A stretch of 64,000 nt of DNA from Dehalococcoidia bacterium (GCA_965116015.1 OZ220477.1:711940-775939), one strand, 5' to 3'; shown: positions 5,235-63,832, counted from the first letter of the stretch. Notes: generated by a model from the sequence alone, not told the origin. Made by a program: numbers and translations.

Positions 5235-6152
5235 GTGGCCAGCCCGCTGCAGGCGCTCTTCATCGTCGGCCCCACCGCCAGCGGCAAAACAGCCGCCGCC
5301 GTCGAACTTGCCGGGCGCGCCCCCATCGAAATCATCAACGCCGACAGCCGCCAGATCTACCGCGGAATGTCCATCGGCTCCGCCAAGCCAACCCCCGCCG
5401 AACAGGCCGCCGCCGTCCACTGCCTCATCGACATCGCCGACCCGGACGAACCGTTCAGCCTCGGCGCGTTCCTCGCCCTCGCACGCGAGGCCATCGCCGG
5501 CGCCGCCTCGCGCGGGAGAATCCCCGTAGTCGTAGGAGGCTCCGGACAATACGTATGGGGGCTCGCGGAAGGATGGCGCCCGCCCCCCGCTCCCCCCGAC
5601 AACGCGCTGCGCCAGCAGCTGTACGCCCTCGCCCAGCGCGACGGCGCGGCGGCCCTCCACGACCGCCTCCGCGACCTCGACCCCGCCTCCGCCGACGCTA
5701 TCGACCCCCGCAACATCCGCCGCGTCGCCCGCGCAATCGAGGTCTGCAGCATCACCGGCAAACCCTTCTCGCAGCAGCGCCTCAGAGCAGACCCCGGATT
5801 CGTCCCCGTCATCCTCGGGCTGCGTCCCTCATCGCGCCAGGATCTCCAACAGCGCATCGACGCCCGCGTCGACGCAATGCTCGCCAGCGGCTGGCTCGAC
5901 GAGACCCGCGCGCTCCTCGACGCCGGATACTCCCCCGACCTGCCGTCGTTCTCCGCCGCCGGCTACCGCGAACTCGCCGCCTGCCTCAACGGCGAACTCA
6001 CCCTCGACGAAGCCGCCGCGCGAGCAAAGTTCGCCGCCCGCCGCCTCGCCCGCTACCAGGGCGCCTGGTTCAAAGAGCGCGACCCCCGCATCGACTGGAG
6101 CGCCGACCCCGCACGCATCGTCCAGCGCGCCCTCAGCATCATCCGCCCTTGA
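5235..6152 (+). CDS. miaA: tRNA dimethylallyltransferase
   Basis: GPTASGKT P-loop, IINADSRQIYRGMSIGSAKPT; GTG start. Confidence 0.9.
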   Translation: MASPLQALFIVGPTASGKTAAAVELAGRAPIEIINADSRQIYRGMSIGSAKPTPAEQAAAVHCLIDIADPDEPFSLGAFLALAREAIAGAASRGRIPVVVGGSGQYVWGLAEGWRPPPAPPDNALRQQLYALAQRDGAAALHDRLRDLDPASADAIDPRNIRRVARAIEVCSITGKPFSQQRLRADPGFVPVILGLRPSSRQDLQQRIDARVDAMLASGWLDETRALLDAGYSPDLPSFSAAGYRELAACLNGELTLDEAAARAKFAARRLARYQGAWFKERDPRIDWSADPARIVQRALSIIRP

Positions 6153-6330
6153 CGCCCCGCCACTCGCGTCGAAATCCCGCCCCCGCATCGACTGGAGCGC
6201 CGACCCCGCACGCATCGTCCAGCGCGCCCTCAGCATCATCCGCCCTTGACGCCCGCTCCCCATCGAAATCCCGCCCCCGCATCGCCTGGAGCGCCGACCC
6301 CGCCCATCGTCCATCCGCCCTTGACGCGCC
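6084..6330. repeat. Tandem repeat (96 + 94 + about 52 nt, three copies) duplicating the last ~70 nt of miaA, including its stop
   Basis: cccccgcatcgactggagcgccgaccccgcacgcatcgtccagcgcgccctcagcatcatccgcccttga occurs at 6084 and again at 6180. A shortened, deleted copy starts at 6274. Confidence 0.85.
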
Positions 6331-7082: not shown

Positions 7083-7835
7083 GTGGCAACGCCTGAGAAC
7101 GACATTAGCGCAAACGATATGGCCCCACCTGAGAATGACGCAGGAGCACAAGAGGTAGTCGCGCCCCAGAGCGATCAAAGCACGGTTACCCAAAGGGACG
7201 ATTCGAGAGGAATCGTCTACATTCTGACGAACGCGGCTATGACCGGGTACATCAAGATTGGGAAGACCAAGGGCACTTCCTCAAGGGACGTGCAGGATCG
7301 TATGCGCGAGCTCTATTCGTCGCCGAGTTCGAGTGGCGTCCCTAGACCTTTCGATTGCTACTACGCGGCAGTAGTCGCAGACCGCCATACGGTTGAGAAG
7401 AAGCTGCACACCATATTCAGTGACTACCGAATCAACCCCAAACGAGAATTCTTCGAGCGCGTCCCGCTCGCCAGCGCGAGAGCCGCTCTGGAGCTAGTCG
7501 CAGAGGTGGATGTAACGCCTAGGGAAATGAGTGAAGGCGAAGAGGAGGGGGATATTAAGCCTCCCAAACTTCCCCATTTCAAATTTCAGAAATACGGCAT
7601 ACCGAAAGGAGCAACGTTGGTGTTCGTGCGAGACAACACCGTAACCTGCACAGTAGAAGACAGCAATAGAAATGTGAAGGACAGCGAAGGAGAAGTCACC
7701 ACACTCTCTCCCTTGACGCAGAAACTCTTGGGTTGGCGCCGGGCGCCATCTGGGGCCGACTACTGGCTGTATGGCGACGAAACCCTAGCCGACTTGCGCA
7801 GAAGGCTAGACGAGGAAGACGCCAACAGAGAGTAG
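7083..7835 (+). CDS. GIY-YIG-like T5orf172 (MUG113) domain protein with a C-terminal DUF4357/RAMA-like domain; low-GC single-gene island
   Basis: GIVYILTN....GYIKIGKT...R..EL and FSDYRINPKREFF match the T5orf172 pattern as I recall it. The C-terminal FKFQKYGIPKGATLVF...TVTC..V......GEVTTLSPLTQKLLGW...GADYW resembles the restriction/methylase-associated RAMA fold. The start may be ATG 7119 rather than GTG 7083. Confidence 0.65.
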   Translation: MATPENDISANDMAPPENDAGAQEVVAPQSDQSTVTQRDDSRGIVYILTNAAMTGYIKIGKTKGTSSRDVQDRMRELYSSPSSSGVPRPFDCYYAAVVADRHTVEKKLHTIFSDYRINPKREFFERVPLASARAALELVAEVDVTPREMSEGEEEGDIKPPKLPHFKFQKYGIPKGATLVFVRDNTVTCTVEDSNRNVKDSEGEVTTLSPLTQKLLGWRRAPSGADYWLYGDETLADLRRRLDEEDANRE

Positions 7836-24694: not shown

Positions 24695-24930
24695 TGCGAG
24701 CCCGGCGAACAGACTTCAACCGGAGCGCTGCGCCCTCGCCGCCTACCACGCCTGGGACTCCCCGAACCCCGATCCGCCGGCGCCCTCGGACGCGCTTCCC
24801 AGCACGGCAAGGCCGCGTGCTCTCCGCTCGTGGATTGCGGCGCGGTCGCGGGGCTCTACCCGCCCACAGGACAGAGCAGCGACCACCCCTCTCGAAGCGA
24901 GGCGGGGTTATCCCGGACAGAAGCGCCCCG

Positions 24931-24962
24931 GGCGGGAGTCCGGCGCGCGCCGAACTCCCGCC
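24931..24962. repeat. GC palindrome 1 (ggcgggagtccggcg/cgccgaactcccgcc, one mismatch) directly after the DUF4258 stop
   Basis: 32-nt inverted repeat 12 nt downstream of the stop at 24974. Same family as those at 25544 and 26661. Confidence 0.8.
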
Positions 24963-24973
24963 GGATGGACGCC

Positions 24974-25312
24974 CTACCTCCTCCTGCGCCGCCTGCGCCC
25001 GCTCGGCCCTCTATACCGCCTTAAACGATGCGCCACAGTAACAACTTTCCCGCCACGCCCCACAATCACGTAAGCGTTCAGACGGTCAACTATGCGCCTG
25101 TACCCCGCCAGACCCAGCGCCCGTTTCGCTCGAAGCCGCGCGCAACGGTCCATCTCGTACCTAAAGGCGCCCTTCCGCGCCCCAATCTCCTTGCCGAACT
25201 CAAGCAGCGCATAAACGACCTCGCGCCCGATCCCTCTACTGTTGCGCCGACGCTCAGCGTGCCTTGAAAACCGGCAGGCTATTCGATCATTCCACCCACT
25301 GCTCTGTGACAT
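24974..25312 (-). CDS. DUF4258-family protein (putative BECR-fold RNase toxin), intact copy
   Basis: MSQSSGWNDRIACRFSRHAERRRNSRGIGREVV...YVIVGRGGKVVTVAHRL. The F-S-x-H-A-x-x-R....RGI block and the C-terminal V-I-T-V pattern fit DUF4258 as I recall it. GGAGAG RBS. Confidence 0.65.
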   Translation of the reverse strand: MSQSSGWNDRIACRFSRHAERRRNSRGIGREVVYALLEFGKEIGARKGAFRYEMDRCARLRAKRALGLAGYRRIVDRLNAYVIVGRGGKVVTVAHRLRRYRGPSGRRRRRRR

Positions 25313-25543
25313 CTTGCGCTCTCCTAAGCTCTGTTCCCGCGCTTCGTTACCTCTCGCAGAACACTCGCCAACATCACGGATAACCGAACATAGCGCTCTC
25401 CTTTCGTTGCGCCTCGCCGCCCCGCTCCCGGCGCAATCACAGCCTGAACAACCGCGCCAGGCCAACCCCGAACGCGTCCATCGCCATAACCGCTCTCAAC
25501 CGCGCTCGCGCAAGCGGGTAGGGCAGCGCTGGACGAGAGTCCC
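25313..25543 (-). repeat. Conserved leader L, copy B (~230 nt), between the palindrome and the DUF4258 start
   Basis: About 80% identical by eye to 26420-26660. Contains a mini-ORF, ATG TTC GGT TAT CCG TGA (25374-25391), behind GAAAGGAG. Confidence 0.8.
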
Positions 25544-25575
25544 GGCAGGGAGTCCGGCGCGCCGGACTCCCTGCC
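25544..25575. repeat. GC palindrome 2: perfect 32-nt palindrome ggcagggagtccggcgcgccggactccctgcc
   Basis: Perfect 16+16 inverted repeat read directly from the sequence. Confidence 0.9.
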
Positions 25576-25586
25576 ATATGGACGCC

Positions 25587-25833
25587 CTACCTCCTTCTGC
25601 GCCGCCTCAAACGATCCCCTGGTTTGGATTACCGGGCCTCGATATCGGAGAACGCGGCGGGCGATTAGGGCGGGAATCCTGCGCAAGCATGGCTCCCACT
25701 CGGCATGCCGCCTACTTCTTTTCCTTCTATGCCGCTTCATCTCGCGATTATCCCCTCTACTGTTGCGCCGGCTCCTGGCGCACCCTGAAAACTGACATCC
25801 TATTCGATTGTTCCATCCATCGCTCTGTGACAT
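25587..25833 (-). pseudogene. Decayed DUF4258 copy (5' ~85 nt and 3' ~35 nt retained, centre replaced)
   Basis: It starts MSQSDGWNNRIGCQFSGCARSRRNSRG, then unrelated sequence follows. The 3' end atcgtttgaggcgg...tag realigns with the intact copies but in a different frame, so the six-frame ORF runs on to 25324. Confidence 0.55.
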
Positions 25834-25888
25834 CTCGCGTCTCTCCTCAAGCTCTTTGCCCGTCACTAAACTGTTGTATGGCATATCC

Positions 25889-26296
25889 CTATTGCTCTTC
25901 ATTCTCTGAATCCTCTCCTCTCGCGCTTCGCCGCCTCTTCAACGCATCGCTAACAGCGGCCTCGCGCTCTTCCTCGCTCATCCAAGCAAGCTCCTCAGCC
26001 CGCTCGATGCTGACGCGGCCCGCGCGCTCCATCGAACGGATGGCGACGCCAAAAGACTTCATCAATGCGTCGAGCTGGCCAGTCAGCAAGAGCTTGACCG
26101 GCGAATCCTCTATCCTGGCCAGAGACTCCGCCATACGCCAAACCATCGCTTTAACAGCCGGCTGAACGACGCCTCTCGCCGCCAGCATCGCCGCCGAGAG
26201 CTCAGCAGGCGTCGCCACATGCTCCTTCCCTTCACCATCCACGTACACCATCAGATTAAACTTGTCTCTCATCGAAACCTTCCTTCCTGCATCCAT
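25889..26296 (-). CDS. Hypothetical protein X (135 aa from MDAGRKVSMRDKF...), family unknown
   Basis: GGAGGAGG RBS before ATG 26296, with a second in-frame ATG at 26272. It is in frame with the upstream DUF4258 5' fragment, which gives the 176-aa ORF 25889..26419. Acidic C-terminal tail. Confidence 0.4.
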   Translation of the reverse strand: MDAGRKVSMRDKFNLMVYVDGEGKEHVATPAELSAAMLAARGVVQPAVKAMVWRMAESLARIEDSPVKLLLTGQLDALMKSFGVAIRSMERAGRVSIERAEELAWMSEEEREAAVSDALKRRRSARGEDSENEEQ

Positions 26297-26322
26297 ATTC
26301 CTCCTCCCGAACCTGGCTGCGA

Positions 26323-26419
26323 CAGCATCGCGACTAATTCTCCTACCGCTGCGCCGACTCTCCGCGTGCCCTGAAAACCGACGCCCTATTCGATTGTTCC
26401 GTCCATTGTTCTGTTCCAT
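26323..26419 (-). pseudogene. DUF4258 5' fragment (MEQNNGRNNRIGRRFSGHAESRRSGRRIS) fused in frame to gene X
   Basis: It aligns to the first ~30 codons of the intact copies and breaks at about the same codon as the 25833 fragment. Confidence 0.5.
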
Positions 26420-26660
26420 CTGTGTCGCTCCCTAAGCTCTATTCCCGCGCTTCACTACCGCCTCGCGGAACCAACTCGCCGACATCACGGATAACCAGAC
26501 ATAACTCCTCCTTTCACCGCGCCTCGCTGCGCCGTCCCCGACGCAATCGCAGCCCGAACAAACGCGCCACGCCGAGCCCCGAACGCGCGCCACCGCCGTA
26601 ACCGCCCCAAACCATGCTCGCGAGAGCGGGCAGGGGGGTAGGCAAGAGGCGAAAGCCCCC
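26420..26660 (-). repeat. Conserved leader L, copy C (~240 nt)
   Basis: Aligns with 25313-25543. Mini-ORF ATG TCT GGT TAT CCG TGA at 26485-26502 behind AAAGGAGG. Confidence 0.8.
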
Positions 26661-26691
26661 GTAGGGAGTCCGGCGCGGCTGGACTCCCTAC
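26661..26691. repeat. GC palindrome 3 (gtagggagtcc-ggcgcggct-ggactccctac)
   Basis: 11-bp stems and a 9-nt loop, 10 nt downstream of the stop at 26702. Confidence 0.85.
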
Positions 26692-26701
26692 CAATGGCGC
26701 C

Positions 26702-27016
26702 CTATCTCCTCTTATGCCGCCTCAAACGATGCGCCACAGTGATGACATTCCCATCACGCGATACAACAACATAAACGTTGAGCCGGTCAGCGATGCGCCT
26801 GTAGTCCGCCGAGCCGAGCGCTTGCTCCACGCGAATCCGCGACGAACGATCCAGCGCGTACGCGAAGGCGCCTTCCCGAGTCCTGGTCTTCTTGCCAAAT
26901 CTGAGCAGCACGTCAACAACGGCCGATCCAATGCCTCTACTGTTGCACCGACGCTCAGCGTGCGCTGAAAACTGACGATCTACTACCCTGTTGTTCTGTT
27001 CATTGTGTGAGGTCAA
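26702..27016 (-). CDS. DUF4258-family protein, intact copy (start uncertain)
   Basis: ...NEQNNRVVDRQFSAHAERRCNSRGIGSAVV...YVVVSRDGNVITVAHRLRRHKRR. A TTG at 27016 sits 10 nt after AAGGAG. The maximal ORF extends to the GTG at 27109, which lies inside the leader's SD and is unlikely to be the start. Confidence 0.6.
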   Translation of the reverse strand: MTSHNEQNNRVVDRQFSAHAERRCNSRGIGSAVVDVLLRFGKKTRTREGAFAYALDRSSRIRVEQALGSADYRRIADRLNVYVVVSRDGNVITVAHRLRRHKRR

Positions 27017-27039
27017 GTCCGCATGGCTCCTTGGTGCTT

Positions 27040-27127
27040 GCTCTTGCGCTAGCTCTCCCGTGGAACAACTCACGAACGACACGAACAGCCTGACATACCC
27101 TCCTTTCACCTCACGCCCTGCTCGCGC
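27040..27127 (-). repeat. Partial leader L, copy D (3' ~90 nt only), with a variant mini-ORF
   Basis: ggtgaaaggagggtatgtcaggctgttcgtg... aligns with the SD/mini-ORF part of copies B and C. The mini-ORF here is MSGCSCRS (27071-27097). Confidence 0.6.
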
Positions 27128-27167
27128 TATAGCCTACGCCCGGCAGAATACCCCGCCGGGCCGAGCA

Positions 27168-35549: not shown

Positions 35550-36520
35550 AGCCGTATCCTCCGGTAACGGCTCCACAGCAGCGCGCCAGCGCCCACAGTA
35601 ATCAGCAGATACGCCGCTACAGGAAACGCGTCGTGCAGCTCCGACACCGCAATCGCCGACGGAGCAGCCTGCCCGGGAACGATCTCAACCCCGAACACCC
35701 GATTATTGATGTTGTCCGTAAGTCCGCTCACATTCAGCAGCCCCACATACGGCGCGAAATCCCCAATGAAATACTCGCACCCCTCGGCGCTCGCCGCCGT
35801 AACCTCGCCGTTCTCCGCCTCGCTCGTGATCGCGCAGTCCCCCTCGTACGACGTCAGAGCATCGCTCGTCGCATTCAGAATCAGCCACGCCGCTATCACA
35901 AACGTCGCCGCGTAAACCCGCCGCGTCGTGAACGCCGACACCGCCATCGGCGCAATCGAAATGAGCGCCGCTATCGCCGCCCCCACAAGCAGAATGCGCC
36001 AAACAACATCCCAATTCTCCCGAATGTACTCCAACGAGTCGCTGGAAGTGAGAATAAGCCCCGCCTGCAGCACAATCTGCCCCGAGTACACCAGCGCGAG
36101 CACAATAACGAAAAACGCCAGAAAACGCGCCAGCAGATAATCCGTCGGCGTCAGCGGACGCACCAGATACAGCGGCAGCACATTGTCCCGCCTGTCCGGC
36201 GCCAGAAGCTCCGGCGCCATAATCGCCGCGAACAGTATCAGAATCGCGCTCACCACAGAGTAGTAGTCCGCCGGACCCGGAATGAAACTGTCCACGCCCT
36301 CCCCAACAAACGTCAGGATAATGGCGAACACCACAGCCGGCGCCATCGCCGCAACGAAAAGCGTAATCGGCAGAATCTTCGCCCTCCCCCCTCGCCCGAT
36401 GCCAAGCATCGTGCGCAACCCGTTCTCGAACAACGCCCGCCGCGCCCTGTTCCGTCCCTCCCGAGGCCCCCGATACCGCTGGTACCCCAGGTCGTAAACT
36501 TCCGCCTCGCGCGCCCTCAC
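35546..36520 (-). CDS. ABC transporter-associated integral membrane protein
   Basis: 324 aa, multiple TM helices, sits between the two ATPase genes. Confidence 0.55.
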   Translation of the reverse strand: MRAREAEVYDLGYQRYRGPREGRNRARRALFENGLRTMLGIGRGGRAKILPITLFVAAMAPAVVFAIILTFVGEGVDSFIPGPADYYSVVSAILILFAAIMAPELLAPDRRDNVLPLYLVRPLTPTDYLLARFLAFFVIVLALVYSGQIVLQAGLILTSSDSLEYIRENWDVVWRILLVGAAIAALISIAPMAVSAFTTRRVYAATFVIAAWLILNATSDALTSYEGDCAITSEAENGEVTAASAEGCEYFIGDFAPYVGLLNVSGLTDNINNRVFGVEIVPGQAAPSAIAVSELHDAFPVAAYLLITVGAGALLWSRYRRIRL

Positions 36521-37419
36521 CCTGCGCCGCCCCTGAAAATGTCAGTCAGCTCCCGGCGCCCCGGCATAAGCCGCCGCAGACGAGCCCCCGACTCCACCGC
36601 CGCATCGCGGATAAGATCGTAGTCCCCCTCCCCGGCCTGCTCGATCACGAACGCCTGCCCGTGATCCTCAACCCTCGCCCCCTTCGCCGCAAGCGCCGCC
36701 CCAAACTCCTCATGACGATCCGCCACCTCGATAGTCAGCGCCTCGGTCTCCTCCGTCAGCTTCTCGACCGCACCCTCCTGCGCGAGCGCCCCAGACTCCA
36801 GCACAATCACCGCATCCGCCGTGCGCTCAATATCCCCCATCAGATGCGTCGACAGCATCACATTGATCCCGAACGCGTCCCACGTCCGCCTGATCAAACG
36901 CAGCATCTCCTGACGGCTATCCGGATCCAGACCCACCGTCGGCTCATCAAGCAGAACCAGCGCCGGATCGTGAACGATAGCCTGCGCCAGCTTCACCTTC
37001 TGCTTCATCCCCATCGAGTACTCCCCGATAGAGCGATACCGCTCCTCGTCAAGCCCCACATGCCGGAGCATATCCGCAGCCCGCGTCCGCGCCGCGTCCG
37101 GCGGTATCCCGCTCACCTGCGCCATATGCATCAGAAACTCCGACGCCGTCACATTCCGCGGCAGCGAATCATCCTGCGGCATATACCCGATCCGAGCTCG
37201 CCCATCGAGCGACTGATACGGCTCCTCCCCCAGCAGCATCGCCGTCCCCGACGTCGGCCGAATCAAACCCAGAAACAGCTTCATCGCCGTGCTCTTCCCT
37301 GCGCCGTTCGGCCCCAGCAGCCCCGTAACCCCCTCGTTCACATCGAACGTAACCCCATCGAGCGCTAGCGTCTTGCCATAGCGCTTAGTCAGATCGCGGG
37401 CTTCCAAAAGAGCTGGCAT
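36517..37419 (-). CDS. ABC transporter ATP-binding protein
   Basis: GPNGAGKST, YSMGMKQK, VLLDEPTVGLD. I prefer MPALLEARDL (ATG 37419). The longer ORF to 37527 runs into the CRISPR array. Confidence 0.85.
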   Translation of the reverse strand: MPALLEARDLTKRYGKTLALDGVTFDVNEGVTGLLGPNGAGKSTAMKLFLGLIRPTSGTAMLLGEEPYQSLDGRARIGYMPQDDSLPRNVTASEFLMHMAQVSGIPPDAARTRAADMLRHVGLDEERYRSIGEYSMGMKQKVKLAQAIVHDPALVLLDEPTVGLDPDSRQEMLRLIRRTWDAFGINVMLSTHLMGDIERTADAVIVLESGALAQEGAVEKLTEETEALTIEVADRHEEFGAALAAKGARVEDHGQAFVIEQAGEGDYDLIRDAAVESGARLRRLMPGRRELTDIFRGGAG

Positions 37420-37492
37420 CGCGCCCGATTCTACCACAGCCCCCACGACGCAACCCGCCCCGCGCCCGTTCCACCGCCGGAGGCCCCGCCCC

Positions 37493-37764
37493 CCTATATC
37501 CCCCCACGCGCAGGCCATCCGTCGCATGGCTGCCGGTCGAATCGCCCGACCCCTCTATATCCCCCCGCGCGCAGACCATCCTCACCAAGGCTAAGAAGCA
37601 GCTCGACCGCCTGGTCTATATCCCCCCGCGCGCAGACCATCCTCGGCGTAGAAGTCCGAGGCGGCCTTCAGTAGGTCTATATCCCCCCGCGCGCAGACCA
37701 TCCTTGCGAATATTGCGGCAACTCAACTGCGAGGACTCTATATCCCCCCGCGCGCAGACCATCC
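37493..37764 (-). CRISPR. Orphan CRISPR array: 5 repeats (28-29 nt) and 4 unique spacers (32-33 nt), period exactly 61
   Basis: tctatatccccccgcgcgcagaccatcc occurs at 37554, 37615, 37676 and 37737, all identical. A degenerate copy at 37493 has 3 mismatches. Its reverse complement, GGATGGTCTGCGCGCGGGGGGATATAGA, has the I-E-like 3' GGGGATA.A. The orientation call rests on that and on the degenerate distal repeat. Confidence 0.75.
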
Positions 37765-37893
37765 CCCGACGCGCCCTTGCGCCCTTAGCGCTGCGAGCGT
37801 AACCCCGCCCATCCCCCGCCACTCCGCCCATCGCCGCCATCCATCTCCCCCATCGTCCCCACAAGCGAGAAATCCCGCGTCTCCTCGTTCCCT

Positions 37894-38066
37894 CGTGTGC
37901 GGCCCCGCGACGCCCGAGCAACGTCCTGCCGCCCCCTTGCCTCGCCCCATAGCGTTCCCCCCGCGCGACCCTCTCCCCGCAGCGTCCCCCGTGTGCGGCC
38001 CCGCGACGCCCGAGCAACGTCCTGCCGCCTCTTGCCTCGCCCCTAACGTCCCCCCGCGCTACCCCG
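37894..38066. repeat. Two-copy 96-bp tandem repeat between the CRISPR array and icmF
   Basis: cgtgtgcggccccgcgacgcccgagcaacgtcctgccgcc...ttgcctcgcccc...ccccccgcgc at 37894 and 37990. Confidence 0.8.
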
Positions 38067-38089
38067 CTCCCCGCGATATACTCCGCGCA

Positions 38090-41041
38090 ATGCAACGCCC
38101 CCCTCGCTTCATCATCGCCACCCCCATCTGCGACGGCCACGACGTCGCCGCAGCTGCCATCACCCGCATCCTCCGCGCGGAAAGCGCCGAAGCCGTCTAC
38201 ATCGGCTTCAACAAATCCGCATCCCAGATCGCCAAAGCCGCCGCCGAAGAAGACGCCGACGCCATCGCCGTCAGCACATACAACGGCGGCCACATGTCCT
38301 TCCTCGCCGAAACCCTCAACCAACAGGCCAAACACGGTGTCGCCCGCGCCCCCCTCTTCGCCGGCGGAGGCGGATCCATCCGCGAAAGCGAAGTCCAGCC
38401 CCTCAAACGCCTCGGCGTCGCCAAAATCTACCGACCCCCGCTCGACCTCGCCGACGCCGTCCGCGATATGCTCTCCCTCGCCCAAACCGCCCGCGCCGAA
38501 CACGACGCCAACCCCGCCCCCAACCACGACGCTCCCCCATTCCGCGCCATCGCCGAGCGCCTCACCGCCATCGAGCGCGGAGCTACCCCCCAACAGCCTC
38601 CGCCCAGCAACCCTCTCCCTCGCGTCTGGGGCGTCGGCGGTCGCGGAGGCGCAGGGAAAAGCTCCCTCATCGACGAACTCCTCCTCCGCTTCCTCCACTC
38701 CAACAACGGCAACATCGCAGTCCTCGCCGCAGACCCAACCCTCGGCGACCGCCTCCGAATGCTCCACTGCTACTCCCCGCGCGTCTTCCTCCGCTCCGTC
38801 CGCGTCGGACCCGGCCAATCCGCCGAAACCACGCTCGCCCCCCTCATCGACGAACTCCGAGCCCACAACTTCGCCCTCATACTCATCGAATCCGTCGGCC
38901 TCGGCCAGAACGAACTCGGCGTCGCGCGCCTCGCCGACGCCTCCATCTTCTGTATGACCCCCGAATACGGCTCCGACATCCAGCTCGAGAAAGAAGCCCT
39001 CCTCCAGCAAGCCGAAATCGTCGTGATGAACAAGCGCGACTTCCCCCAGGCCGAAGCCCGCGCAGCCCGCGTTCGCCGCTTCCTCCCCGACGACCGCCCC
39101 CTCTTCCTCGCCGAGGCCCGACGCTTCGGCGACCCCGGCGTCTCCTCGCTGTTCGCCGAAATCGCCCGCCGCTCCGGCCTCCAGTCCGGCAACCCCCCAA
39201 CTCCACCCGCAGCCGCGGCTCCGCCCGTCCCCTTCGCCCAGCGCGCCTACCTCGGAGCCATCGTCGACGCCCACGAGAACTACTACGCCGAATCCGAAAC
39301 CGAAGCCTCCCTCGCAGCCGTAGGAAACCCCTCCCGCGACTACCAAACCGAATTCAACCGCCTCTGGAGCGACTACGGCTTCGACGGCGACCTAGGCGGC
39401 GCCTCCATCAACAACGGCGTCGCCTACCGCAACGTTAACGGCAAACCCGCGCCCGTCGCCCGAATGACCACCACCGGCATCTGGGTCCCCGTCCTCGGCC
39501 TGCCCGACCGCGACGCCGCCCCCCAACAGATCGTCCGGTACCTCTACAAACAGAACGCCCCCGGACATTTCCCCTTCACCGAAGGCGCCTACCCCCACCG
39601 CCGCCGCGACGAAGACCCCATCCGTATGTTCGCCGGCCTCGGCCTCCCCGAAACCACCAACCAGCGCTTCCACCTGCTCGCCGCAGGACACGGCTCCCCG
39701 CGCCTCTCCACCGCCTTCGACTCCCTAACCCTCTACGGCCTCGACTCCGACGAGCCCGGAGCCCTCGCCAAAGTCGGCGAAGGCGGCGTCGCGCTCGACA
39801 CCATCGACGATATGCTCCGCCTCTACGACGGATTCAACCTCGAACAAACCTCCGTCTCCCTCACCATCAACGGCCCCGCCCCAACAATCATGGCCCTCTT
39901 CCTCGCCGCCGCACGCCGCCGGGGAGCAGACTGGCGGAAACTCCGAGGCACCATCCAAACCGACATCCTCAAAGAAGTCCAGGCACAGAACGAAGCCCTC
40001 TTCCCCCTCGAACCATCCCTCCGGCTCCTCGGCGATATGATCGAGCACACACTCCGCGAGGCCCCCTCCTGGCATCCCATCTCCATCTCCGGCTACCACA
40101 TCGGCGAAGCCGGAGCCAACCCCGTCCAGGAACTCGCCTTCACCCTCGCCAACGCCTTCACCTACGTCGAAATCCTCAAAGCCCGCGGCCTCTCCCCCGA
40201 AGAATTCACCCGACGCTTCTCCTTCTTCTTCACCTCCGGCTCCGAACTCGAATTCAACGCCCTCGGACGCGTCGCCCGCCGCATCTGGGCCATCGCCCTC
40301 AAACAACGCTACCGCGTCCACGGCCCAGGCCTCGCCCTCCGCTTCCACAGCCAAACCTCAGGACGATCCCTCCAGGACTCCGAACCCCTCCACAACCTCG
40401 CCCGCGTCGCCATCCAGGCCGAACACGCCCTCCACAACAACGCCAACTCCCTCCACACCAACTCCTACAAAGAAACCTACACCACCCCCGAAGAAGACGA
40501 CGTCCGACTAGCAATCGGCAGCCAGCAAATCCCCCTTATGGAAAGCGGCGACTTCGCCTTCACCGAAAACCTCCACCAAGGCGCCTACGGCCTCTCCTTC
40601 CTCGAAGACGAAGTCGAACGCGCCGTCCACCGCATCTTCCGCGAAATCGACCGCCAGGGCGGCGTCCTCCCAGCCATCGAAAACGAGTACTTCCGCACCG
40701 TCATCCAGGAAGAAGTCCAGCGCGAACGACGCGCAATGCGCAAGGGCGAACGCAAAATCGTCGGCGTCAACTACCTCGTCTCAGCCAACCCAGACTCCAA
40801 ACCCCGCGGCGGAATCGTCCACATCCCTATGCAAGAGAAACGCCGCCAGGCCGCCCGAACCCGCGCATTCAAGCGCGCGCACGCCTCCCAGGCCAAGCGC
40901 GCCCTCGACAACCTCCAGCGCGTCGCAGCCTCCCGCGACAACGCCTTTGAAGCCATCCTCCACGCCGTCGAACACGCCACCGTCGGACAGATCACCCACG
41001 CCCTCTGGGAAGTCTGGGGACGCTTCCGCCCTAGTATGTAA
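38090..41041 (+). CDS. icmF: Fused isobutyryl-CoA mutase (B12-binding domain + MeaB-like GTPase + mutase catalytic domain)
   Basis: N-terminal B12 domain (PICDGHDVAAAAI), P-loop GVGGRGGAGKSSLIDEL, then a methylmalonyl-CoA mutase-like barrel (FTEGAYPHRRRDEDP, TNQRFH, YHIGEAGANPVQELAF). TATACT box 7 nt before the ATG suggests a leaderless mRNA. Confidence 0.85.
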   Translation: MQRPPRFIIATPICDGHDVAAAAITRILRAESAEAVYIGFNKSASQIAKAAAEEDADAIAVSTYNGGHMSFLAETLNQQAKHGVARAPLFAGGGGSIRESEVQPLKRLGVAKIYRPPLDLADAVRDMLSLAQTARAEHDANPAPNHDAPPFRAIAERLTAIERGATPQQPPPSNPLPRVWGVGGRGGAGKSSLIDELLLRFLHSNNGNIAVLAADPTLGDRLRMLHCYSPRVFLRSVRVGPGQSAETTLAPLIDELRAHNFALILIESVGLGQNELGVARLADASIFCMTPEYGSDIQLEKEALLQQAEIVVMNKRDFPQAEARAARVRRFLPDDRPLFLAEARRFGDPGVSSLFAEIARRSGLQSGNPPTPPAAAAPPVPFAQRAYLGAIVDAHENYYAESETEASLAAVGNPSRDYQTEFNRLWSDYGFDGDLGGASINNGVAYRNVNGKPAPVARMTTTGIWVPVLGLPDRDAAPQQIVRYLYKQNAPGHFPFTEGAYPHRRRDEDPIRMFAGLGLPETTNQRFHLLAAGHGSPRLSTAFDSLTLYGLDSDEPGALAKVGEGGVALDTIDDMLRLYDGFNLEQTSVSLTINGPAPTIMALFLAAARRRGADWRKLRGTIQTDILKEVQAQNEALFPLEPSLRLLGDMIEHTLREAPSWHPISISGYHIGEAGANPVQELAFTLANAFTYVEILKARGLSPEEFTRRFSFFFTSGSELEFNALGRVARRIWAIALKQRYRVHGPGLALRFHSQTSGRSLQDSEPLHNLARVAIQAEHALHNNANSLHTNSYKETYTTPEEDDVRLAIGSQQIPLMESGDFAFTENLHQGAYGLSFLEDEVERAVHRIFREIDRQGGVLPAIENEYFRTVIQEEVQRERRAMRKGERKIVGVNYLVSANPDSKPRGGIVHIPMQEKRRQAARTRAFKRAHASQAKRALDNLQRVAASRDNAFEAILHAVEHATVGQITHALWEVWGRFRPSM

Positions 41042-41092
41042 CCCGCCCCGGAACGCCCCAGCCTTCCTCCCACCCCCCTTTCCTGCACCCCC

Positions 41093-41320
41093 CCGGAAGC
41101 CCCCGAAAGGGCAGGGGAGAACGCCGCTCTCGAACATCCGCAACGCGCCGCAGCATTCCGCGCCAGTCCCCCTCCCCCAGCCGGAAGCCCCGAAAGGGCA
41201 GGGGAGAGCCGCCCGAACATCCGCAACGCGCCGCAGCGCCCGCGCCAGCTCCCCCTCTCCCTGCCGGAATCCCCCGAAAGGGCAGGGGAGAGCGCCCCTC
41301 TCGACGCCCAGGCCCCTCCG
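41093..41320. repeat. Three tandem 83-88-bp units, each carrying a hairpin (CTCTCCCTGCC..GGCAGGGGAGAG); REP-like or terminator cluster
   Basis: ccggaa(g/t)cccc(c)gaaagggcaggggaga...cgaacatccgcaacgcgccgcagc units start at 41093, 41181 and 41264. Confidence 0.8.
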
Positions 41321-46790: not shown

Positions 46791-46919
46791 ATGAAGTGCC
46801 GGAGCGAACGCCAGATCGCCAACCCCACCACCGTCTATATGAAGAACGGACGCCCCGCCACAGAAGGAAAATGCCCCGTCTGCGGCGCCCGTATGTACCG
46901 CCTCGGACCGGCCGCCTGA
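46791..46919 (+). CDS. DUF5679-like 42-aa zinc-ribbon protein (below the ORF-track size cutoff)
   Basis: MKCRSERQIANPTTVYMKNGRPATEGKCPVCGARMYRLGPAA. The pattern KC....I.NP....MKNGR.A..G.CP.CG....R matches the family as I recall it. Confidence 0.6.
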   Translation: MKCRSERQIANPTTVYMKNGRPATEGKCPVCGARMYRLGPAA

Positions 46920-47084
46920 GCGCCCACCCATCACCCCTATAATGCCCTCCACTTCCTCCAACCTCGCCCCGCCACAGAAGGGAAATGCCCCGTCTGCGGC
47001 GCACGTATGTGCCGCCTCGGACCGGCCGCCTGAGCGCCCACCCATCACCCCTATAATGCCCTCCGCCTCCTCCAACCTCGCCCC
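46853..47084. repeat. Two-copy 114-bp tandem duplication covering the 3' third of the DUF5679 gene plus downstream sequence (each copy has a TATAAT box)
   Basis: ccccgccacagaagg(a/g)aaatgccccgtctgcggcgc...cctgagcgcccacccatcacccctataatgccctcc at 46853 and 46967, about 5 differences. TATAAT at 46938 and 47052; the latter lies 60 nt before lgt. Confidence 0.85.
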
Positions 47085-60934: not shown

Positions 60935-63832
60935 CTACGCCCGAACCTCGCCCTCCTCTCCCCATGGCCCCATCCACCACTCCAACCTCCCGCCCGCATT
61001 CTCATACGCCTCGCGATCCGTCGTCACCCTCCGCGTAGACCCCCACGGACTCGTCACATCCCAATGCTTCCCCCCTCTCCCTGCCGCCGTCCAGCCGGCG
61101 GGCAGCAGCCCCGGCTCGCGCAAAGGCCGCTCCAGATCCTCCAGCCCCACCTTCGGACGCAGAGGCTCCTCTGGCCCCTCCCAATCCGCGTTCAGCCGGT
61201 TGATATCGAACACAGACCGCTGCATCTCCTCCAGACGCTCCAGCTCAGCCTCAGCATCCCTCTCATCCCGGATAATCCCCTGAATCCCCGCCGCAATGAT
61301 CGGCGGGTACTCCCCCACATTCTTCGTTATGCTCTCGAAACGCCGCGCAAGAGCCTCATACGCGTCATGCTCCGCCGTCCCCGCATAGAACAGATTCACC
61401 ACATCCACCACCTCACGCTCCTGACCGATACGATCAATCCGACCCGCCCGCTGCTCCAGCGTCATCGGATTCCACGGAATATCGTAATTCACCACCGCCG
61501 AACAGAACTGCAGATTCAACGACTCCGACGCCGTCTCCGTGCACAGAAGAACCCCGCCCTCCTCCCTCCTGAACGCCTCCAGACGCTCCCCCCGATCCCC
61601 CAAACCCCCATCCCCGCCGTAAAGCTCAACAACGTGCCGCCCAGACCCCCGCAGATGCTCCCCCAGCCACCGCTGCGTATCCCGGAACTGCGTGAACAAC
61701 AGAATATGCCGGTGCCCCTTCCCCCCAAGCTCATCCAGAACGCCACCCAAACGCTCCCGCTTGCTATCCCTCTCCGACAACCTCTCAGCCGCCTCCGCCG
61801 CCTCAAGCAACCCCCCAGGATCCGATGCCGACCCCAACCTCCCCGCCTCGCTCTCCGCAACCTCATCCAGATCAGCATCGTCCAGCAGAGCAGCCCACTC
61901 GTCAGAATCCAGAAGCAACCCCGACTCGTCCGACTCCCCCCGACCCGCCACATTCCGCAACGTCTGCGCGTACGCAACCAGCGACGACCCCATCCGCTTC
62001 CGGAAAATCGTCGTGATAAACCCCAACGCCTGACCCGTGATCCCACGGCTCCCGTAACGCTGCTCCACCAACGGCTTGATCCCCTCGTACAGACCCCGCT
62101 CCTCCGCCGTCATCTCTATCGTCACGTCCCCCGCCCGACGATGAGGCACAGGAGCGTCCAGCAAACCCCGGCTCCGATACTCCCGCAGCAACTTCCGCGT
62201 ATGACGGCTCATCAACCGACGCCCCGGAGCATCCCGCTCCATCGCCCTCGCCGACCTCTCACGCTCCCCAGCATCCGCCAGCCGGCGCGCGATATAGTCA
62301 TCGTTGTCGCTATCAAGCAGGAAATCCCCCGACCCCAACTCCGACTCTAACCCCGACGCCCTCCGCCACAACTCCCGACGCCGCTTCCAACGCCCAACAT
62401 CAACCCCCCCATCCCCAGACTCCCCCTCATAGAACTGACGATACTCCTCCGAACCCCAACCCTCCGGCTCAAGCAACTCCAGCAATCCCCACAACTCCGC
62501 CTCATTCAGCTGCATCGGCGTCGCCGTCAGCAACAGCAACTCCCGAGTCCTCCGCGACAGCTCCCGCAACAACTTCAGATACTGATTAGGCTGACGCCGA
62601 GCATCGATATCCACATCCCGGAACCGCGCCCGATGCGCCTCATCCACAATAACAATGTCATACTCCCCGCACGTCGCCAGAAACTGCTCCGAATTCCGAA
62701 CCAGCCACTGATGACCCGCTATCCCCAGCGGAACCCCAACCCACGGAGGATCCCCCGAACCCTCGCTCCGACCATCCCGATACGAAAGACCCCGCGCGTC
62801 AACGATCGGCGCCTCAATCGCAAACTTCATCTTCAACTCGCTCTGCCACTGCTTCCCCGCAGCCTTCGGAGCAATCACCAGAGCCCGCCCCGCACGCCCC
62901 TGATTCAACCGCGTCCGCAGAACAACCCCCGCCTGCAACGTCTTCCCCAAACCCACCTCGTCCGCGATCAACCGCCGCGCCGCAGCAGCCCCCACATTCG
63001 CCCGCCGGAACCGCTCCTGATGCGGCCACAGCCTCGCCGGCATCGTCGCCGCCGTACTGTCCGCATCGCTCGCCAGACCCTCCCGGATCCGCCGCCAGTA
63101 CTCCTCAGCCTCGCCATCCTCCGCCCCGTAATCCTCCCCAACCTCCCGGATAACCCCCGGAGGCGACTGCGGAGCCTGCGACGCAATGTACTCCCGGAAA
63201 TGCGCCGGCAGATCGATCACCCTCACCCCCGACGCCGCGTTCTCCCACAACAACCGAAACTCCCGCTCCGCACCCTCCAGATGCTCCAGAGTCCCCCAGC
63301 TCGTATACACATGAACCGACTCCCAATTCGCCTCCCACGAATGCCGCGTCTCATTCACGCTCCCCGTAAACGCCGCCCGATTCCCCCACGCATCCTCCAC
63401 GATCCCGCTCTTCGCGTGAAAGCTGTCCTCCCCCCGAATCGCAACCTTCACCTCCATCAACCCGTTCGCCACAAGCCAGTACGCCAGACCCAAAGGAGTG
63501 CGCCCCGCGATATCCTCCGCCTCCGTCAGACGCAGATCCTCCAGACTCACCGCCTCGCGCAGAACCGCCTCCCCATCCACCTGATTCCGATACAGCGCCT
63601 CCAGCGTCTCCCGATTCACCGCATGATCGCACACCACCCGTATCCGGCCGCCGTTCCGAACCAAACCCGCCGTACCCTCAGCCGCCGCCCTCAAACCGCT
63701 CGCGCTGAACGTATACGTCGTCCGATCGTACCGAACCGCCTCCCCCAGCAACGGCTCATACAACCCCGCCACCAGATCCGGACAATCGCCATGGTTGTAA
63801 ACCGCCCGCAACCCAATATCACTCAGCGCCAT
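60935..63832 (-). CDS. PLD-like nuclease domain fused to an SNF2-family helicase (965 aa)
   Basis: N-terminal single HKD-type motif FHAKSGIVED...GSVNET. SNF2 motifs LWPHQ, DEVGLGKT, VIVDEAHR, LLLTATPMQ. Helicase-C motifs VLLCTETASESLNLQ and NPMTLEQRAGRIDRIGQ. Confidence 0.8.
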   Translation of the reverse strand: MALSDIGLRAVYNHGDCPDLVAGLYEPLLGEAVRYDRTTYTFSASGLRAAAEGTAGLVRNGGRIRVVCDHAVNRETLEALYRNQVDGEAVLREAVSLEDLRLTEAEDIAGRTPLGLAYWLVANGLMEVKVAIRGEDSFHAKSGIVEDAWGNRAAFTGSVNETRHSWEANWESVHVYTSWGTLEHLEGAEREFRLLWENAASGVRVIDLPAHFREYIASQAPQSPPGVIREVGEDYGAEDGEAEEYWRRIREGLASDADSTAATMPARLWPHQERFRRANVGAAAARRLIADEVGLGKTLQAGVVLRTRLNQGRAGRALVIAPKAAGKQWQSELKMKFAIEAPIVDARGLSYRDGRSEGSGDPPWVGVPLGIAGHQWLVRNSEQFLATCGEYDIVIVDEAHRARFRDVDIDARRQPNQYLKLLRELSRRTRELLLLTATPMQLNEAELWGLLELLEPEGWGSEEYRQFYEGESGDGGVDVGRWKRRRELWRRASGLESELGSGDFLLDSDNDDYIARRLADAGERERSARAMERDAPGRRLMSRHTRKLLREYRSRGLLDAPVPHRRAGDVTIEMTAEERGLYEGIKPLVEQRYGSRGITGQALGFITTIFRKRMGSSLVAYAQTLRNVAGRGESDESGLLLDSDEWAALLDDADLDEVAESEAGRLGSASDPGGLLEAAEAAERLSERDSKRERLGGVLDELGGKGHRHILLFTQFRDTQRWLGEHLRGSGRHVVELYGGDGGLGDRGERLEAFRREEGGVLLCTETASESLNLQFCSAVVNYDIPWNPMTLEQRAGRIDRIGQEREVVDVVNLFYAGTAEHDAYEALARRFESITKNVGEYPPIIAAGIQGIIRDERDAEAELERLEEMQRSVFDINRLNADWEGPEEPLRPKVGLEDLERPLREPGLLPAGWTAAGRGGKHWDVTSPWGSTRRVTTDREAYENAGGRLEWWMGPWGEEGEVRA

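What the first reader, a model, noticed from the sequence alone, without database searches (positions are those of the whole stretch)
37493..37764. Orphan five-repeat CRISPR array with I-E-like geometry and no cas genes within at least 23 kb on either side
Four identical 28-nt repeats and one degenerate terminal repeat are spaced at exactly 61 nt, with four unique spacers. The spacers lack the host C excess (C=41, G=41 in total), which fits a foreign origin. The repeat's 5' half (GGTCTGCGCG) no longer forms the usual CCCCGC/GCGGGG stem with its 3' half. The array may therefore depend on a distant or unusual Cas6-type nuclease, or be inactive despite perfect repeat identity. It sits 74 nt upstream of an ABC-transporter operon on the same strand and abuts the ATPase's annotated N-terminal extension.
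Basis: partly seen in the sequence, partly recalled or inferred. Interest (0 to 1): 0.6.

Follow-up and report, generated by a model that had tools for sequence, protein, structure and literature searches.

The report
Orphan CRISPR mini-array, hairpin-less repeats
This is a real but very small CRISPR array (five repeats, four spacers) in a housekeeping region of an uncultured Chloroflexi-like genome; it has the dimensions of a type I-E array, has lost the repeat hairpin and has no cas genes nearby, so it is a minor curiosity rather than a new system.

Summary
Four identical 29-nt repeats and one degenerate end copy lie exactly 61 nt apart (37493-37765), separated by four unrelated 32-nt spacers. 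None is expected by chance.

The array fills a lineage-specific ~645-bp gap between two divergent housekeeping genes, an ABC ATPase and IcmF. Eight related genomes have no array near their ABC-operon homologue; seven keep the IcmF-ABC gap, and five carry a PhD/PIN toxin-antitoxin pair in it.

None of about 65 ORFs scanned across the 64-kb window matches a Cas family.

Read on the minus strand, the repeat aligns in register with type I-E repeats (16/28 with E. coli, shuffle p≈0.002). The I-E hairpin is lost (+1.9 versus -15.1 kcal/mol).

The flanks and the repeat carry the host's strong strand skew. The spacers do not (-0.01, versus a host mean of -0.31), which suggests a different origin.

The repeat and spacers have no match in the reference-genome, metagenome, viral, phage or plasmid collections.

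Best reading: a young array of I-E lineage with no cas genes nearby, probably not processed by a canonical Cas6e. It may have arisen by off-target spacer integration.

I could not read the rest of the 2.39-Mb source genome, so whether cas genes exist elsewhere is open.

Interest is low to moderate.

The parts
37493..37765 (-). The whole CRISPR array: 5 repeats and 4 spacers with a 61-nt period. It is read on the minus strand, running from the IcmF side towards the ABC operon.
   Evidence: The orientation is inferred from the degenerate repeat lying at the 37493 end and from the in-register similarity to I-E repeats on the minus strand.
37737..37765 (-). Repeat 1, on the inferred leader side. 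Minus strand: GGGATGGTCTGCGCGCGGGGGGATATAGA. Only the first base differs from the consensus.
37705..37736 (-). Spacer 4, the newest under the inferred orientation. Minus strand: GTCCTCGCAGTTGAGTTGCCGCAATATTCGCA.
   Evidence: No match in viral contigs, phages or plasmids, the window or the relatives' loci.
37676..37704 (-). Repeat 2, the consensus sequence AGGATGGTCTGCGCGCGGGGGGATATAGA.
37644..37675 (-). Spacer 3. Minus strand: CCTACTGAAGGCCGCCTCGGACTTCTACGCCG.
   Evidence: No match.
37615..37643 (-). Repeat 3, consensus sequence.
37583..37614 (-). Spacer 2. Minus strand: CCAGGCGGTCGAGCTGCTTCTTAGCCTTGGTG.
   Evidence: No match.
37554..37582 (-). Repeat 4, consensus sequence.
37522..37553 (-). 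Spacer 1, the oldest. Minus strand: GGGGTCGGGCGATTCGACCGGCAGCCATGCGA.
   Evidence: No match.
37493..37521 (-). Terminal degenerate repeat, CGGATGGCCTGCGCGTGGGGGGATATAGG. It keeps one more C of the former 5' stem arm than the other copies. The public annotation places the ABC ATPase start codon inside it.
37766..38066 (-). Flank on the inferred leader side. It is lineage-specific and GC-rich (0.73), carries host-like strand skew (-0.42), has no consensus promoter and is not AT-rich.
37889..38074 (.). A 96-nt unit repeated twice in tandem inside that flank. Each unit holds TCCCCCCGCGCG(A/T)CCC, which resembles the repeat core TCCCCCCGCGCGCAGACC. The resemblance may be chance.
37420..37492 (-). 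A 73-nt trailer between the array and the ABC ATPase start. It holds a TGGTAGAAT extended -10-like motif 7 nt before the ATG.
   Evidence: plus reading of the sequence.

Best explanation
This is a genuine, evolutionarily young CRISPR array of type I-E lineage. It sits alone in a variable intergenic gap of an uncultured Chloroflexi-like chromosome.

How it was built (inferred). A Cas1-Cas2 integrase with a type I-E ruler inserted 32/33-bp fragments of DNA from elsewhere. Each insertion duplicated a 28/29-bp repeat.

What the repeat looks like now (shown). It keeps the I-E register and the I-E-like 3' half (CGCGGGGGGAUAUAGA). It has lost the 7-bp hairpin that Cas6e needs. Every change that breaks the stem removes a C from the RNA-sense strand, which is the direction of this genome's strong strand bias.

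What it most likely does (inferred). If transcribed, it would run on the minus strand from the IcmF side towards the ABC operon. A canonical Cas6e would not cut that transcript into crRNAs, so the array is most likely silent.

How it got here (inferred). The most economical origin is off-target ('neo-CRISPR') spacer integration into native intergenic DNA by an I-E adaptation module encoded elsewhere in the genome, now or in the past. The alternative is propagation of a mutated leader-proximal repeat.

Shown: the anatomy, the I-E register, the loss of the hairpin, host-like flanks with non-host-like spacers, absence from relatives, and absence of cas genes in the window. Inferred: the orientation, the integration mechanism, the lack of processing, and the ectopic origin.
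For: - Anatomy: five copies at exactly 61-nt spacing with 0.00 expected by chance. The four 32-nt spacers are unrelated, sharing 6-14 of 32 positions against 9.6 expected.
- Not a coding repeat: 61 is not a multiple of 3. TRF does not call the region as a plain tandem repeat.
- I-E lineage: ungapped in-register identity is 16/28 with the E. coli K-12 I-E repeat and 17/28 with a metagenomic I-E array (L050). Only 41 of 20,000 shuffles reach 16, even allowing both strands and frame shifts of up to 2 nt.
- Same geometry as true I-E arrays: L050 and L010 have 29-nt repeats and a 61-nt period.
- Hairpin lost: the minimum free energy is -4.9 kcal/mol (z = -0.3). Forced into the canonical I-E stem register, the repeat scores +1.9 kcal/mol, against -15.1, -12.2 and -14.3 for true I-E repeats.
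- The terminal (oldest) repeat keeps one more stem C and scores -2.7 kcal/mol in that register.
- Strand skew: trailer -0.45, leader -0.42, repeat -0.56, spacers -0.012. Only 1.4% of 128-nt windows in the whole window, and 0.4% locally, reach a value that close to zero.
- Young and lineage-specific: homology with relatives stops at the two gene starts.
- Relatives: the seven that keep the IcmF-ABC gap (adjacent ABC protein 81-84% identical) have no array. Five carry PhD/PIN in the gap, one of these also carries HepT plus a neighbouring gene, one gap is an empty 173 bp and one is short and unoccupied. An eighth relative (76% identical, ABC operon in a different neighbourhood) also has no array.
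- Identical repeats contrast with the heterogeneous copies of a decayed I-E array such as L050.
- No Cas family in about 65 ORFs scanned across the window.
- Off-target integration that creates new arrays is documented for the E. coli I-E system. I know this from Nivala et al. 2018 only as cited in bioRxiv 10.1101/148544, PMC7054753 and PMC6698737.
Against: - No protospacer was found for any spacer in IMG/VR, in GenBank phages or in PLSDB plasmids. Foreign origin rests on composition alone.
- The same repeat was not found next to cas genes anywhere, so the type assignment rests on geometry and 57-61% in-register identity.
- The 3' handle (AUAUAGA) differs from the I-E consensus (AUAAACCG) in its last three positions.
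- The flank on the leader side is GC-rich and has no recognisable promoter or AT-rich leader.
- Four perfectly identical repeats would also fit an active array served by a distant, non-canonical processing enzyme.
- The ectopic-origin idea lacks its key evidence. No relative shows an alignable empty site, and the parent array and cas1-cas2 could not be looked for because the rest of the source genome was not retrievable.
Confidence: 0.6

Rival explanations
1. It is a functional satellite array. A cas operon more than 26-37 kb away in the same 2.39-Mb genome uses this exact hairpin-less repeat, through a divergent Cas6e or another processing route. The array is transcribed and provides immunity.
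For: - Four perfectly identical repeats and strictly constant 32-nt spacers point to recent, precise acquisition.
- Arrays that lie far from their cas operon are common. This is established knowledge; the second E. coli K-12 array is an example.
- The spacers look like fragments of coding DNA from a GC-rich source and lack the host skew.
Against: - No hairpin.
- No AT-rich leader and no consensus promoter.
- Only four spacers.
- The repeat is absent from 185,579 species-representative genomes, from JGI metagenomes and from IMG/VR. No family of such arrays next to cas genes is visible.
- No array in eight relatives.
Confidence: 0.2
2. It is the relic of a complete CRISPR-Cas locus. The locus was inserted at this hot spot and later lost its cas genes by deletion. 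The repeat then drifted under the host's mutational bias.
For: - The gap is a hot spot that holds toxin-antitoxin cassettes in relatives.
- All the substitutions that break the stem remove a C in the direction of the host skew, and the oldest repeat is one step closer to the canonical stem.
Against: - Independent decay should make the copies differ from each other, as in the decayed array L050. Here four copies are identical.
- The 645-bp insert has no room for a cas gene fragment and has host-like skew throughout its flanks.
- It would need a large insertion followed by a near-precise deletion that left both neighbouring promoters intact.
Confidence: 0.12
3. It is not a CRISPR array. It is a regularly spaced set of protein-binding sites (iteron-like or regulatory), or a product of the tandem duplication that is frequent in this genome's intergenic regions.
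For: - The window holds several intergenic tandem duplications of 85-114 nt: 6083-6254, 37889-38074, 41080-41304 and 46851-47078.
- The array lies between two divergent promoters.
- There is no cas gene, no protospacer and no hairpin.
Against: - The other duplications copy whole units at 90-100% identity. Here 29 nt are perfect and the 32 nt between them are at chance similarity. Divergence after duplication cannot produce that pattern.
- The spacers alone lack the host skew.
- The dimensions are exactly those of I-E, and the repeat aligns in register with I-E repeats.
- None of eight relatives with the same operon has such sites.
Confidence: 0.05

Closest known systems
Type I-E CRISPR arrays (E. 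coli K-12 repeat GAGTTCCCCGCGCCAGCGGGGATAAACCG; metagenomic examples L050 and L010 fetched here)
   Same: - The repeat is 28-29 nt, the spacers are 32-33 nt and the period is 61 nt.
- In-register identity is 16-17 of 28 positions.
- They share the G-run followed by AUA at the point where Cas6e would cut.
- A degenerate repeat sits at the far end.
   Different: - The 7-bp hairpin is absent: +1.9 kcal/mol in the canonical register against -12 to -15.
- The last three bases of the 5' handle differ (AGA instead of CCG).
- There is no AT-rich leader.
- No I-E cas genes lie within 26-37 kb.
Neo-CRISPR (ectopic) arrays made by off-target Cas1-Cas2 integration (Nivala, Shipman and Church 2018, Nat Microbiol 3:310; known here only through citing papers)
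   Same: - It is a short array outside any cas locus.
- Its repeat has the length set by the parent system but only partly resembles the canonical repeat.
- Its flanks look like native DNA by skew.
- It is absent from relatives.
   Different: - The parent array and cas1-cas2 have not been shown to exist in this genome.
- No empty-site homologue could be aligned.
- Four successive spacers at one ectopic site would be unusually many, as far as I recall from that study. I could not read the paper itself.
Orphan CRISPR arrays in general (arrays in genomes or regions that lack cas genes)
   Same: It is an isolated small array in a housekeeping neighbourhood with no cas genes nearby.
   Different: Many orphan arrays have heterogeneous, decaying repeats. 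This one has four identical copies. 'Orphan' is established here only at the scale of the window.
Mini-arrays carried by viruses and mobile elements
   Same: It is very short (four spacers) and has no cas genes of its own.
   Different: No phage, plasmid or transposon gene lies next to it. The neighbours are in the same order as in the relatives' chromosomes.

Membership tests
CRISPR array (generic) | At least 3 near-identical direct repeats of 23-55 nt at regular spacing | tested here: met
   There are five copies of a 29-mer with starts exactly 61 nt apart. Four are identical over 28-29 nt. The number expected by chance is 0.00.
CRISPR array (generic) | Unique spacers of similar length | tested here: met
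   The four spacers are all 32 nt. Pairwise identity is 6-14 of 32 against 9.6 expected by chance. None has another copy in the window or in the relatives' loci.
CRISPR array (generic) | Spacers match mobile genetic elements | tested here: inconclusive
   There were no hits in IMG/VR, using patterns with N at every sixth position and patterns that tolerate codon wobble. blastn against phages and plasmids gave only chance-level matches that overlapped the repeat. These collections may simply lack this lineage's viruses. The spacers' lack of host skew is indirect support.
CRISPR array (generic) | cas genes adjacent or elsewhere in the genome | tested here: not met
   No Cas family was found by Pfam, PADLOC or NCBIfam in about 65 ORFs scanned across the 64-kb window. 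The rest of the genome could not be tested because the source contig could not be retrieved.
CRISPR array (generic) | AT-rich leader with a promoter next to the newest repeat | tested here: not met
   Both flanks are GC-rich (0.73 and 0.80) and no sigma-70 consensus was found. The promoter scan also missed the evident promoters of the two neighbouring genes, so it is weak evidence.
CRISPR array (generic) | Transcription and processing into crRNAs | not testable with these tools
   This needs small-RNA sequencing of the organism or its community.
Type I-E array | 28-29-nt repeat with 32-33-nt spacers (61-nt period) | tested here: met
   The layout is 29+32 (or 28+33), the same as the I-E arrays L050 and L010.
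Type I-E array | Repeat forms a stable 6-7-bp GC hairpin (CCCCGC/GCGGGG) recognised by Cas6e | tested here: not met
   The minimum free energy is -4.9 kcal/mol, no better than shuffled sequence. In the canonical stem register the repeat scores +1.9 kcal/mol, against -15.1 for E. coli, -12.2 for L050 and -14.3 for L010.
Type I-E array | Sequence similarity to I-E repeats in the same register | tested here: met
   Identity is 16/28 with E. coli and 17/28 with L050. Only 41 of 20,000 shuffles reach 16. The similarity is concentrated in the 3' half.
Type I-E array | I-E cas operon (cas3, cas8e, cas11, cas7e, cas5e, cas6e, cas1e, cas2e) in the genome | not testable with these tools
   It is absent from the window.
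Neo-CRISPR / ectopic array | Flanks and proto-repeat are native DNA of the site | tested here: inconclusive
   The flanks and the repeat have host-like skew, -0.42 to -0.56. However, no relative has an alignable empty site. Their gaps hold toxin-antitoxin genes or an unrelated 173 bp.
Neo-CRISPR / ectopic array | A canonical parent array and cas1-cas2 of matching ruler length in the same genome | not testable with these tools
   The source genome is not retrievable.

The most novel reading that the evidence does not exclude
The array records repeated, precise spacer acquisition onto a repeat that cannot form the I-E hairpin. That would mean one of two things. Either it is a natural neo-CRISPR locus caught shortly after it arose by off-target integration in an uncultured Chloroflexota lineage, or an I-E-derived system in this lineage adapts and processes crRNA without the Cas6e hairpin.
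Probability: 0.2. Interest if true: 0.55.

Novelty: new member of a known kind. Interest (0 to 1): 0.3.

Why it matters
If the array arose by off-target integration, it would be one of very few natural examples of a CRISPR locus being created from nothing. It would come with a clear before-and-after comparison, because relatives have a different content at the same site. That bears on how new arrays originate.

If instead a distant cas operon uses it, it would show an I-E-type system that tolerates a repeat with no hairpin.

Otherwise it is an ordinary small array with no cas genes nearby. Its main practical consequence is an annotation error. The public ABC ATPase model starts inside the terminal repeat and carries a spurious 33-residue extension at its N-terminus.

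Tried and rejected
- Rfam. The region gave no CRISPR-DR match even at E<=10. Three canonical I-E arrays used as a positive control gave none either, so this negative result says nothing.
- Exact repeat search. The 22-mer was absent from the species-representative genomes, the JGI metagenomes and IMG/VR.
- Two-copy search with the 3' core of the repeat in the reference genomes. It returned only an unrelated 30-nt tandem repeat in Marinilabilia.
- Three-copy search for GGGGATAT in the metagenomes. It returned more than 120 loci, including true I-E arrays, but none shares the 5' half of this repeat.
- Spacer searches. Nothing was found in IMG/VR with N at every sixth position, or with patterns that tolerate codon wobble. 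blastn against phages and plasmids gave only chance-level hits that overlapped the repeat.
- Self-targets and extra copies. The window holds no self-target, no anti-repeat and no extra repeat copy.
- Retrieving the source genome by exact protein look-up failed three times.
- Remnants of the relatives' PhD, PIN and HepT genes and HepT's neighbouring gene were sought in the window by tblastn. None was found.
- Further degenerate repeats in phase in the flanks reach only 15-17 of 29 positions, which is indistinguishable from the C-rich background.
- A literature search for the repeat sequence found nothing relevant. The Nivala et al. 2018 paper itself is not held in the library.
- A search of the protein database with a Cas protein, to pick out hits from the 2,388,059-bp contig, was considered and not run. 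Only the best 120 hits are listed, so success was unlikely.

Full report
**1. The observation**

The + strand of 37493-37765 holds five copies of TCTATATCCCCCCGCGCGCAGACCATCCT, with starts exactly 61 nt apart.
- A 27-mer search allowing three mismatches finds these five copies and nothing else in 64 kb. Shuffled sequence gives 0.00 expected.
- Three copies are identical over 29 nt. The copy at 37737 differs only in its last base. The copy at 37493 has two internal changes plus changes at both edge bases.
- The four intervening 32-mers share 6-14 of 32 positions with each other and with the flanks, against 9.6 expected from composition.
- TRF does not report the region as a tandem repeat. That is what a repeat-spacer layout predicts.
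- The period of 61 nt is not a multiple of three, so this is not a coding repeat.

**2. The setting**

The array lies in a 670-bp gap between two divergently transcribed housekeeping genes.
- One is an ABC-transporter ATPase on the minus strand. Its real start is MPALLEAR at 37419.
- The other is the fused isobutyryl-CoA mutase IcmF on the plus strand, which starts near 38091.
- The public protein for the ATPase (P0001, 333 aa, on a 2,388,059-bp contig held by NCBI and ENA) begins MACAWGDIGG. That is a translation of the terminal repeat. Its relatives are 299-300 aa, so the annotated start is an artefact of the array.

No cas gene is present in the window.
- I scanned about 65 ORFs covering the window against Pfam. 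They were chosen by codon-position GC, plus the ORFs that lie in the gaps between those.
- I scanned the ORFs with no Pfam match, plus two with defence-like domains, against PADLOC, and the ORFs with no Pfam match against NCBIfam.
- Nothing matches a Cas family.
- The neighbours are central-metabolism genes such as pgk, tpiA, tkt, zwf, tal and glmS.

The named hits among the ABC protein's homologues are Chloroflexi and Dehalococcoidia MAGs.

**3. Relatives**

Exact-protein look-ups gave the syntenic locus in seven relatives whose ABC ATPase is 81-84% identical. An eighth (76%) has the ABC operon in a different neighbourhood.
- None has a CRISPR-like array anywhere in the roughly 130 kb fetched.
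- The IcmF-ABC gap is variable. It is an empty 173 bp in L001.
- It holds a PhD/PIN toxin-antitoxin pair in L004, L007, L008, L129 and L130. L004 also has HepT and a neighbouring gene there.
- It is short and unoccupied in L006.
- Nucleotide homology with the window stops at the two gene starts. About 645 bp (37421-38066) is therefore specific to this lineage.
- tblastn finds no remnant of the toxin-antitoxin genes.

The array is thus a recent, lineage-specific occupant of a site that turns over small cassettes.

**4. What kind of repeat it is**

On the minus strand the repeat reads AGGATGGTCTGCGCGCGGGGGGATATAGA.
- The degenerate copy is at the end nearest the ABC gene. The usual rule (degenerate repeat far from the leader) therefore also puts the leader on the IcmF side and transcription on the minus strand.
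- In that orientation the geometry (29+32 or 28+33) is that of type I-E. Two true I-E arrays fetched from metagenomes have the same 61-nt period.
- An ungapped in-register comparison gives 16/28 identities with the E. coli K-12 I-E repeat. I wrote that repeat from memory.
- It gives 17/28 with L050, although that locus was selected because it shares GGGGATAT.
- Only 41 of 20,000 shuffles of the repeat reach 16, even allowing both strands and frame shifts of up to 2 nt.
- The shared positions are mainly in the 3' half (CGCG..GGGGAUA).

The hairpin that defines I-E repeats is gone.
- The minimum free energy is -4.9 kcal/mol, no better than shuffled sequence.
- Forcing the canonical 7-bp register costs +1.9 kcal/mol. 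True I-E repeats score -15.1, -12.2 and -14.3.
- Relative to the canonical stem the changes are C to G, C to U and C to U in the 5' arm, and C to G in the 3' arm.
- Every one of these removes a C from the RNA-sense strand.
- The terminal repeat keeps one of those Cs and scores -2.7 kcal/mol.

The Rfam search found no CRISPR-DR family. Canonical I-E arrays used as a control found none either, so that negative carries no weight.

**5. Composition**

This genome has an unusually strong strand bias. GC skew on the + strand runs from -0.2 to -0.48 across the window.
- The trailer (-0.45), the leader-side flank (-0.42) and the repeat itself (-0.56) all share it.
- The 128 nt of spacer have a skew of -0.012.
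- Only 1.4% of all 128-nt windows, and 0.4% of local ones, reach a value that close to zero.
- The spacers therefore differ in origin or orientation history from everything around them. The repeat and flanks look native or long-resident.

This is the best evidence that the variable segments were imported piecemeal, as in CRISPR adaptation.

**6. Searches elsewhere**

- The repeat (22-mer) is absent from 185,579 species-representative genomes, from the JGI metagenomes and from IMG/VR.
- A two-copy search with its 3' core found only an unrelated tandem repeat.
- A looser three-copy search found many I-E arrays, but none with this 5' half.
- No spacer matched IMG/VR, even with tolerant patterns. 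blastn against phages and plasmids gave only chance-level alignments that span the repeat.
- There is no self-target and no anti-repeat in the window.
- The remainder of the source genome could not be retrieved. Whether cas genes exist elsewhere in it is unknown.

**7. Interpretation**

The anatomy can only reasonably be produced by a CRISPR integrase: perfect 29-mers alternating with unrelated 32-mers of fixed length and different composition. I put about 0.9 on 'it is a CRISPR array' and about 0.65 on 'of I-E lineage'.

Four identical repeats mean one of two things. The array may be young. Alternatively, new repeats were copied from an already hairpin-less first repeat.

Independent decay of an old array would give heterogeneous copies, as L050 shows.

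Several features fit off-target ('neo-CRISPR') integration by an I-E Cas1-Cas2:
- there is no local cas gene;
- there is no AT-rich leader;
- the flanks look native;
- the repeat resembles I-E repeats only in part;
- the relatives have no array.

That process has been described for E. coli and inferred in a few natural genomes (Nivala et al. 2018). I could consult it only through citing papers.

The alternatives cannot be excluded without the whole genome. They are a functional satellite array of an unusual system, or the relic of a deleted locus whose mutated repeat was propagated.

A non-CRISPR origin is unlikely. This genome does make tandem duplications in intergenic DNA, but those copy whole units at 90-100% identity.

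**8. Verdict**

What I add is:
- the statistical link to I-E repeats;
- the contrast between host-like flanks and spacers without the host skew;
- the hot-spot context;
- the annotation error.

It is a new member of a known kind. Interest is low to moderate (0.3). It would rise to about 0.55 if the full genome shows that this is a neo-CRISPR locus or a working hairpin-less I-E variant.

Noticed in passing
window 36517-37518 (minus strand): The public protein model of the ABC ATPase (P0001, 333 aa) starts at an ATG inside the terminal CRISPR repeat (MACAWGDIGG...). It carries a spurious 33-residue N-terminal extension. Relatives start at MAALLEAR and are 299-300 aa.
   Followed up: yes
window 1-64000: GC skew is extremely strong and uniform on the + strand, -0.2 falling to -0.48. 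It persists whichever strand the genes are on, so it is probably a replication-strand mutational bias rather than an effect of gene orientation.
   Followed up: partly
window 6083-6254, 37889-38074, 41080-41304, 46851-47078: There are several near-perfect tandem duplications of 85-114-nt units in or at the edges of intergenic regions (97 nt x2-3, 96 nt x2, about 85 nt x3, 114 nt x2). It looks like a recurring habit of this genome, and its cause is unknown.
   Followed up: no
window 24900-27150 (minus strand): A lower-GC stretch (0.58-0.65) holds four diverged tandem copies of a ~550-600-nt unit. Their ORFs share the motif FSxHAERRRNSRGIGREVV...YRRIxDRLNAYV...TVAHRLRR. None matches Pfam, PADLOC or NCBIfam. 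Some copies look decayed. They may be DUF4258-like toxin paralogues, since relatives carry a DUF4258 gene next to IcmF.
   Followed up: partly
window 60935-63832 (minus strand): A 965-aa protein combines a PLD nuclease domain with an SNF2 helicase. It matches the PADLOC models DrmD, BrxH, PLD_Helicase and PbeA (E down to 3e-61). It appears to be a lone defence-type helicase with no obvious DISARM or BREX partners in the window.
   Followed up: partly
window 7083-7835 (plus strand): A 250-aa T5orf172/MUG113-domain protein matches the PADLOC candidate defence family PDC-S57 (E=2.5e-53). It is inserted among housekeeping genes in a locally lower-GC stretch (0.63).
   Followed up: no
window 37430-37442 and 38070-38090; L001 9828-10000: Both genes flanking the gap have a -10-like hexamer (TAGAAT or TATACT) only 7-10 nt before the start codon. 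The same is true in relative L001. This suggests leaderless or near-leaderless mRNAs in this lineage. The consensus promoter scanner misses these sites.
   Followed up: partly
L004 8281-9921; L007 9311-9978; L008 9291-9955; L129 4880-5730; L130 2731-3575: In five relatives the IcmF-ABC gap carries a PhD/PIN toxin-antitoxin pair. L004 also carries HepT plus a neighbouring gene. This one intergenic site exchanges small defence or addiction cassettes between close lineages.
   Followed up: yes
L021, L050, L010 (control): The Rfam copy used here returns no CRISPR-DR family even for canonical I-E arrays with dozens of repeats. Rfam negatives for CRISPR repeats in this tool set should not be trusted.
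   Followed up: yes
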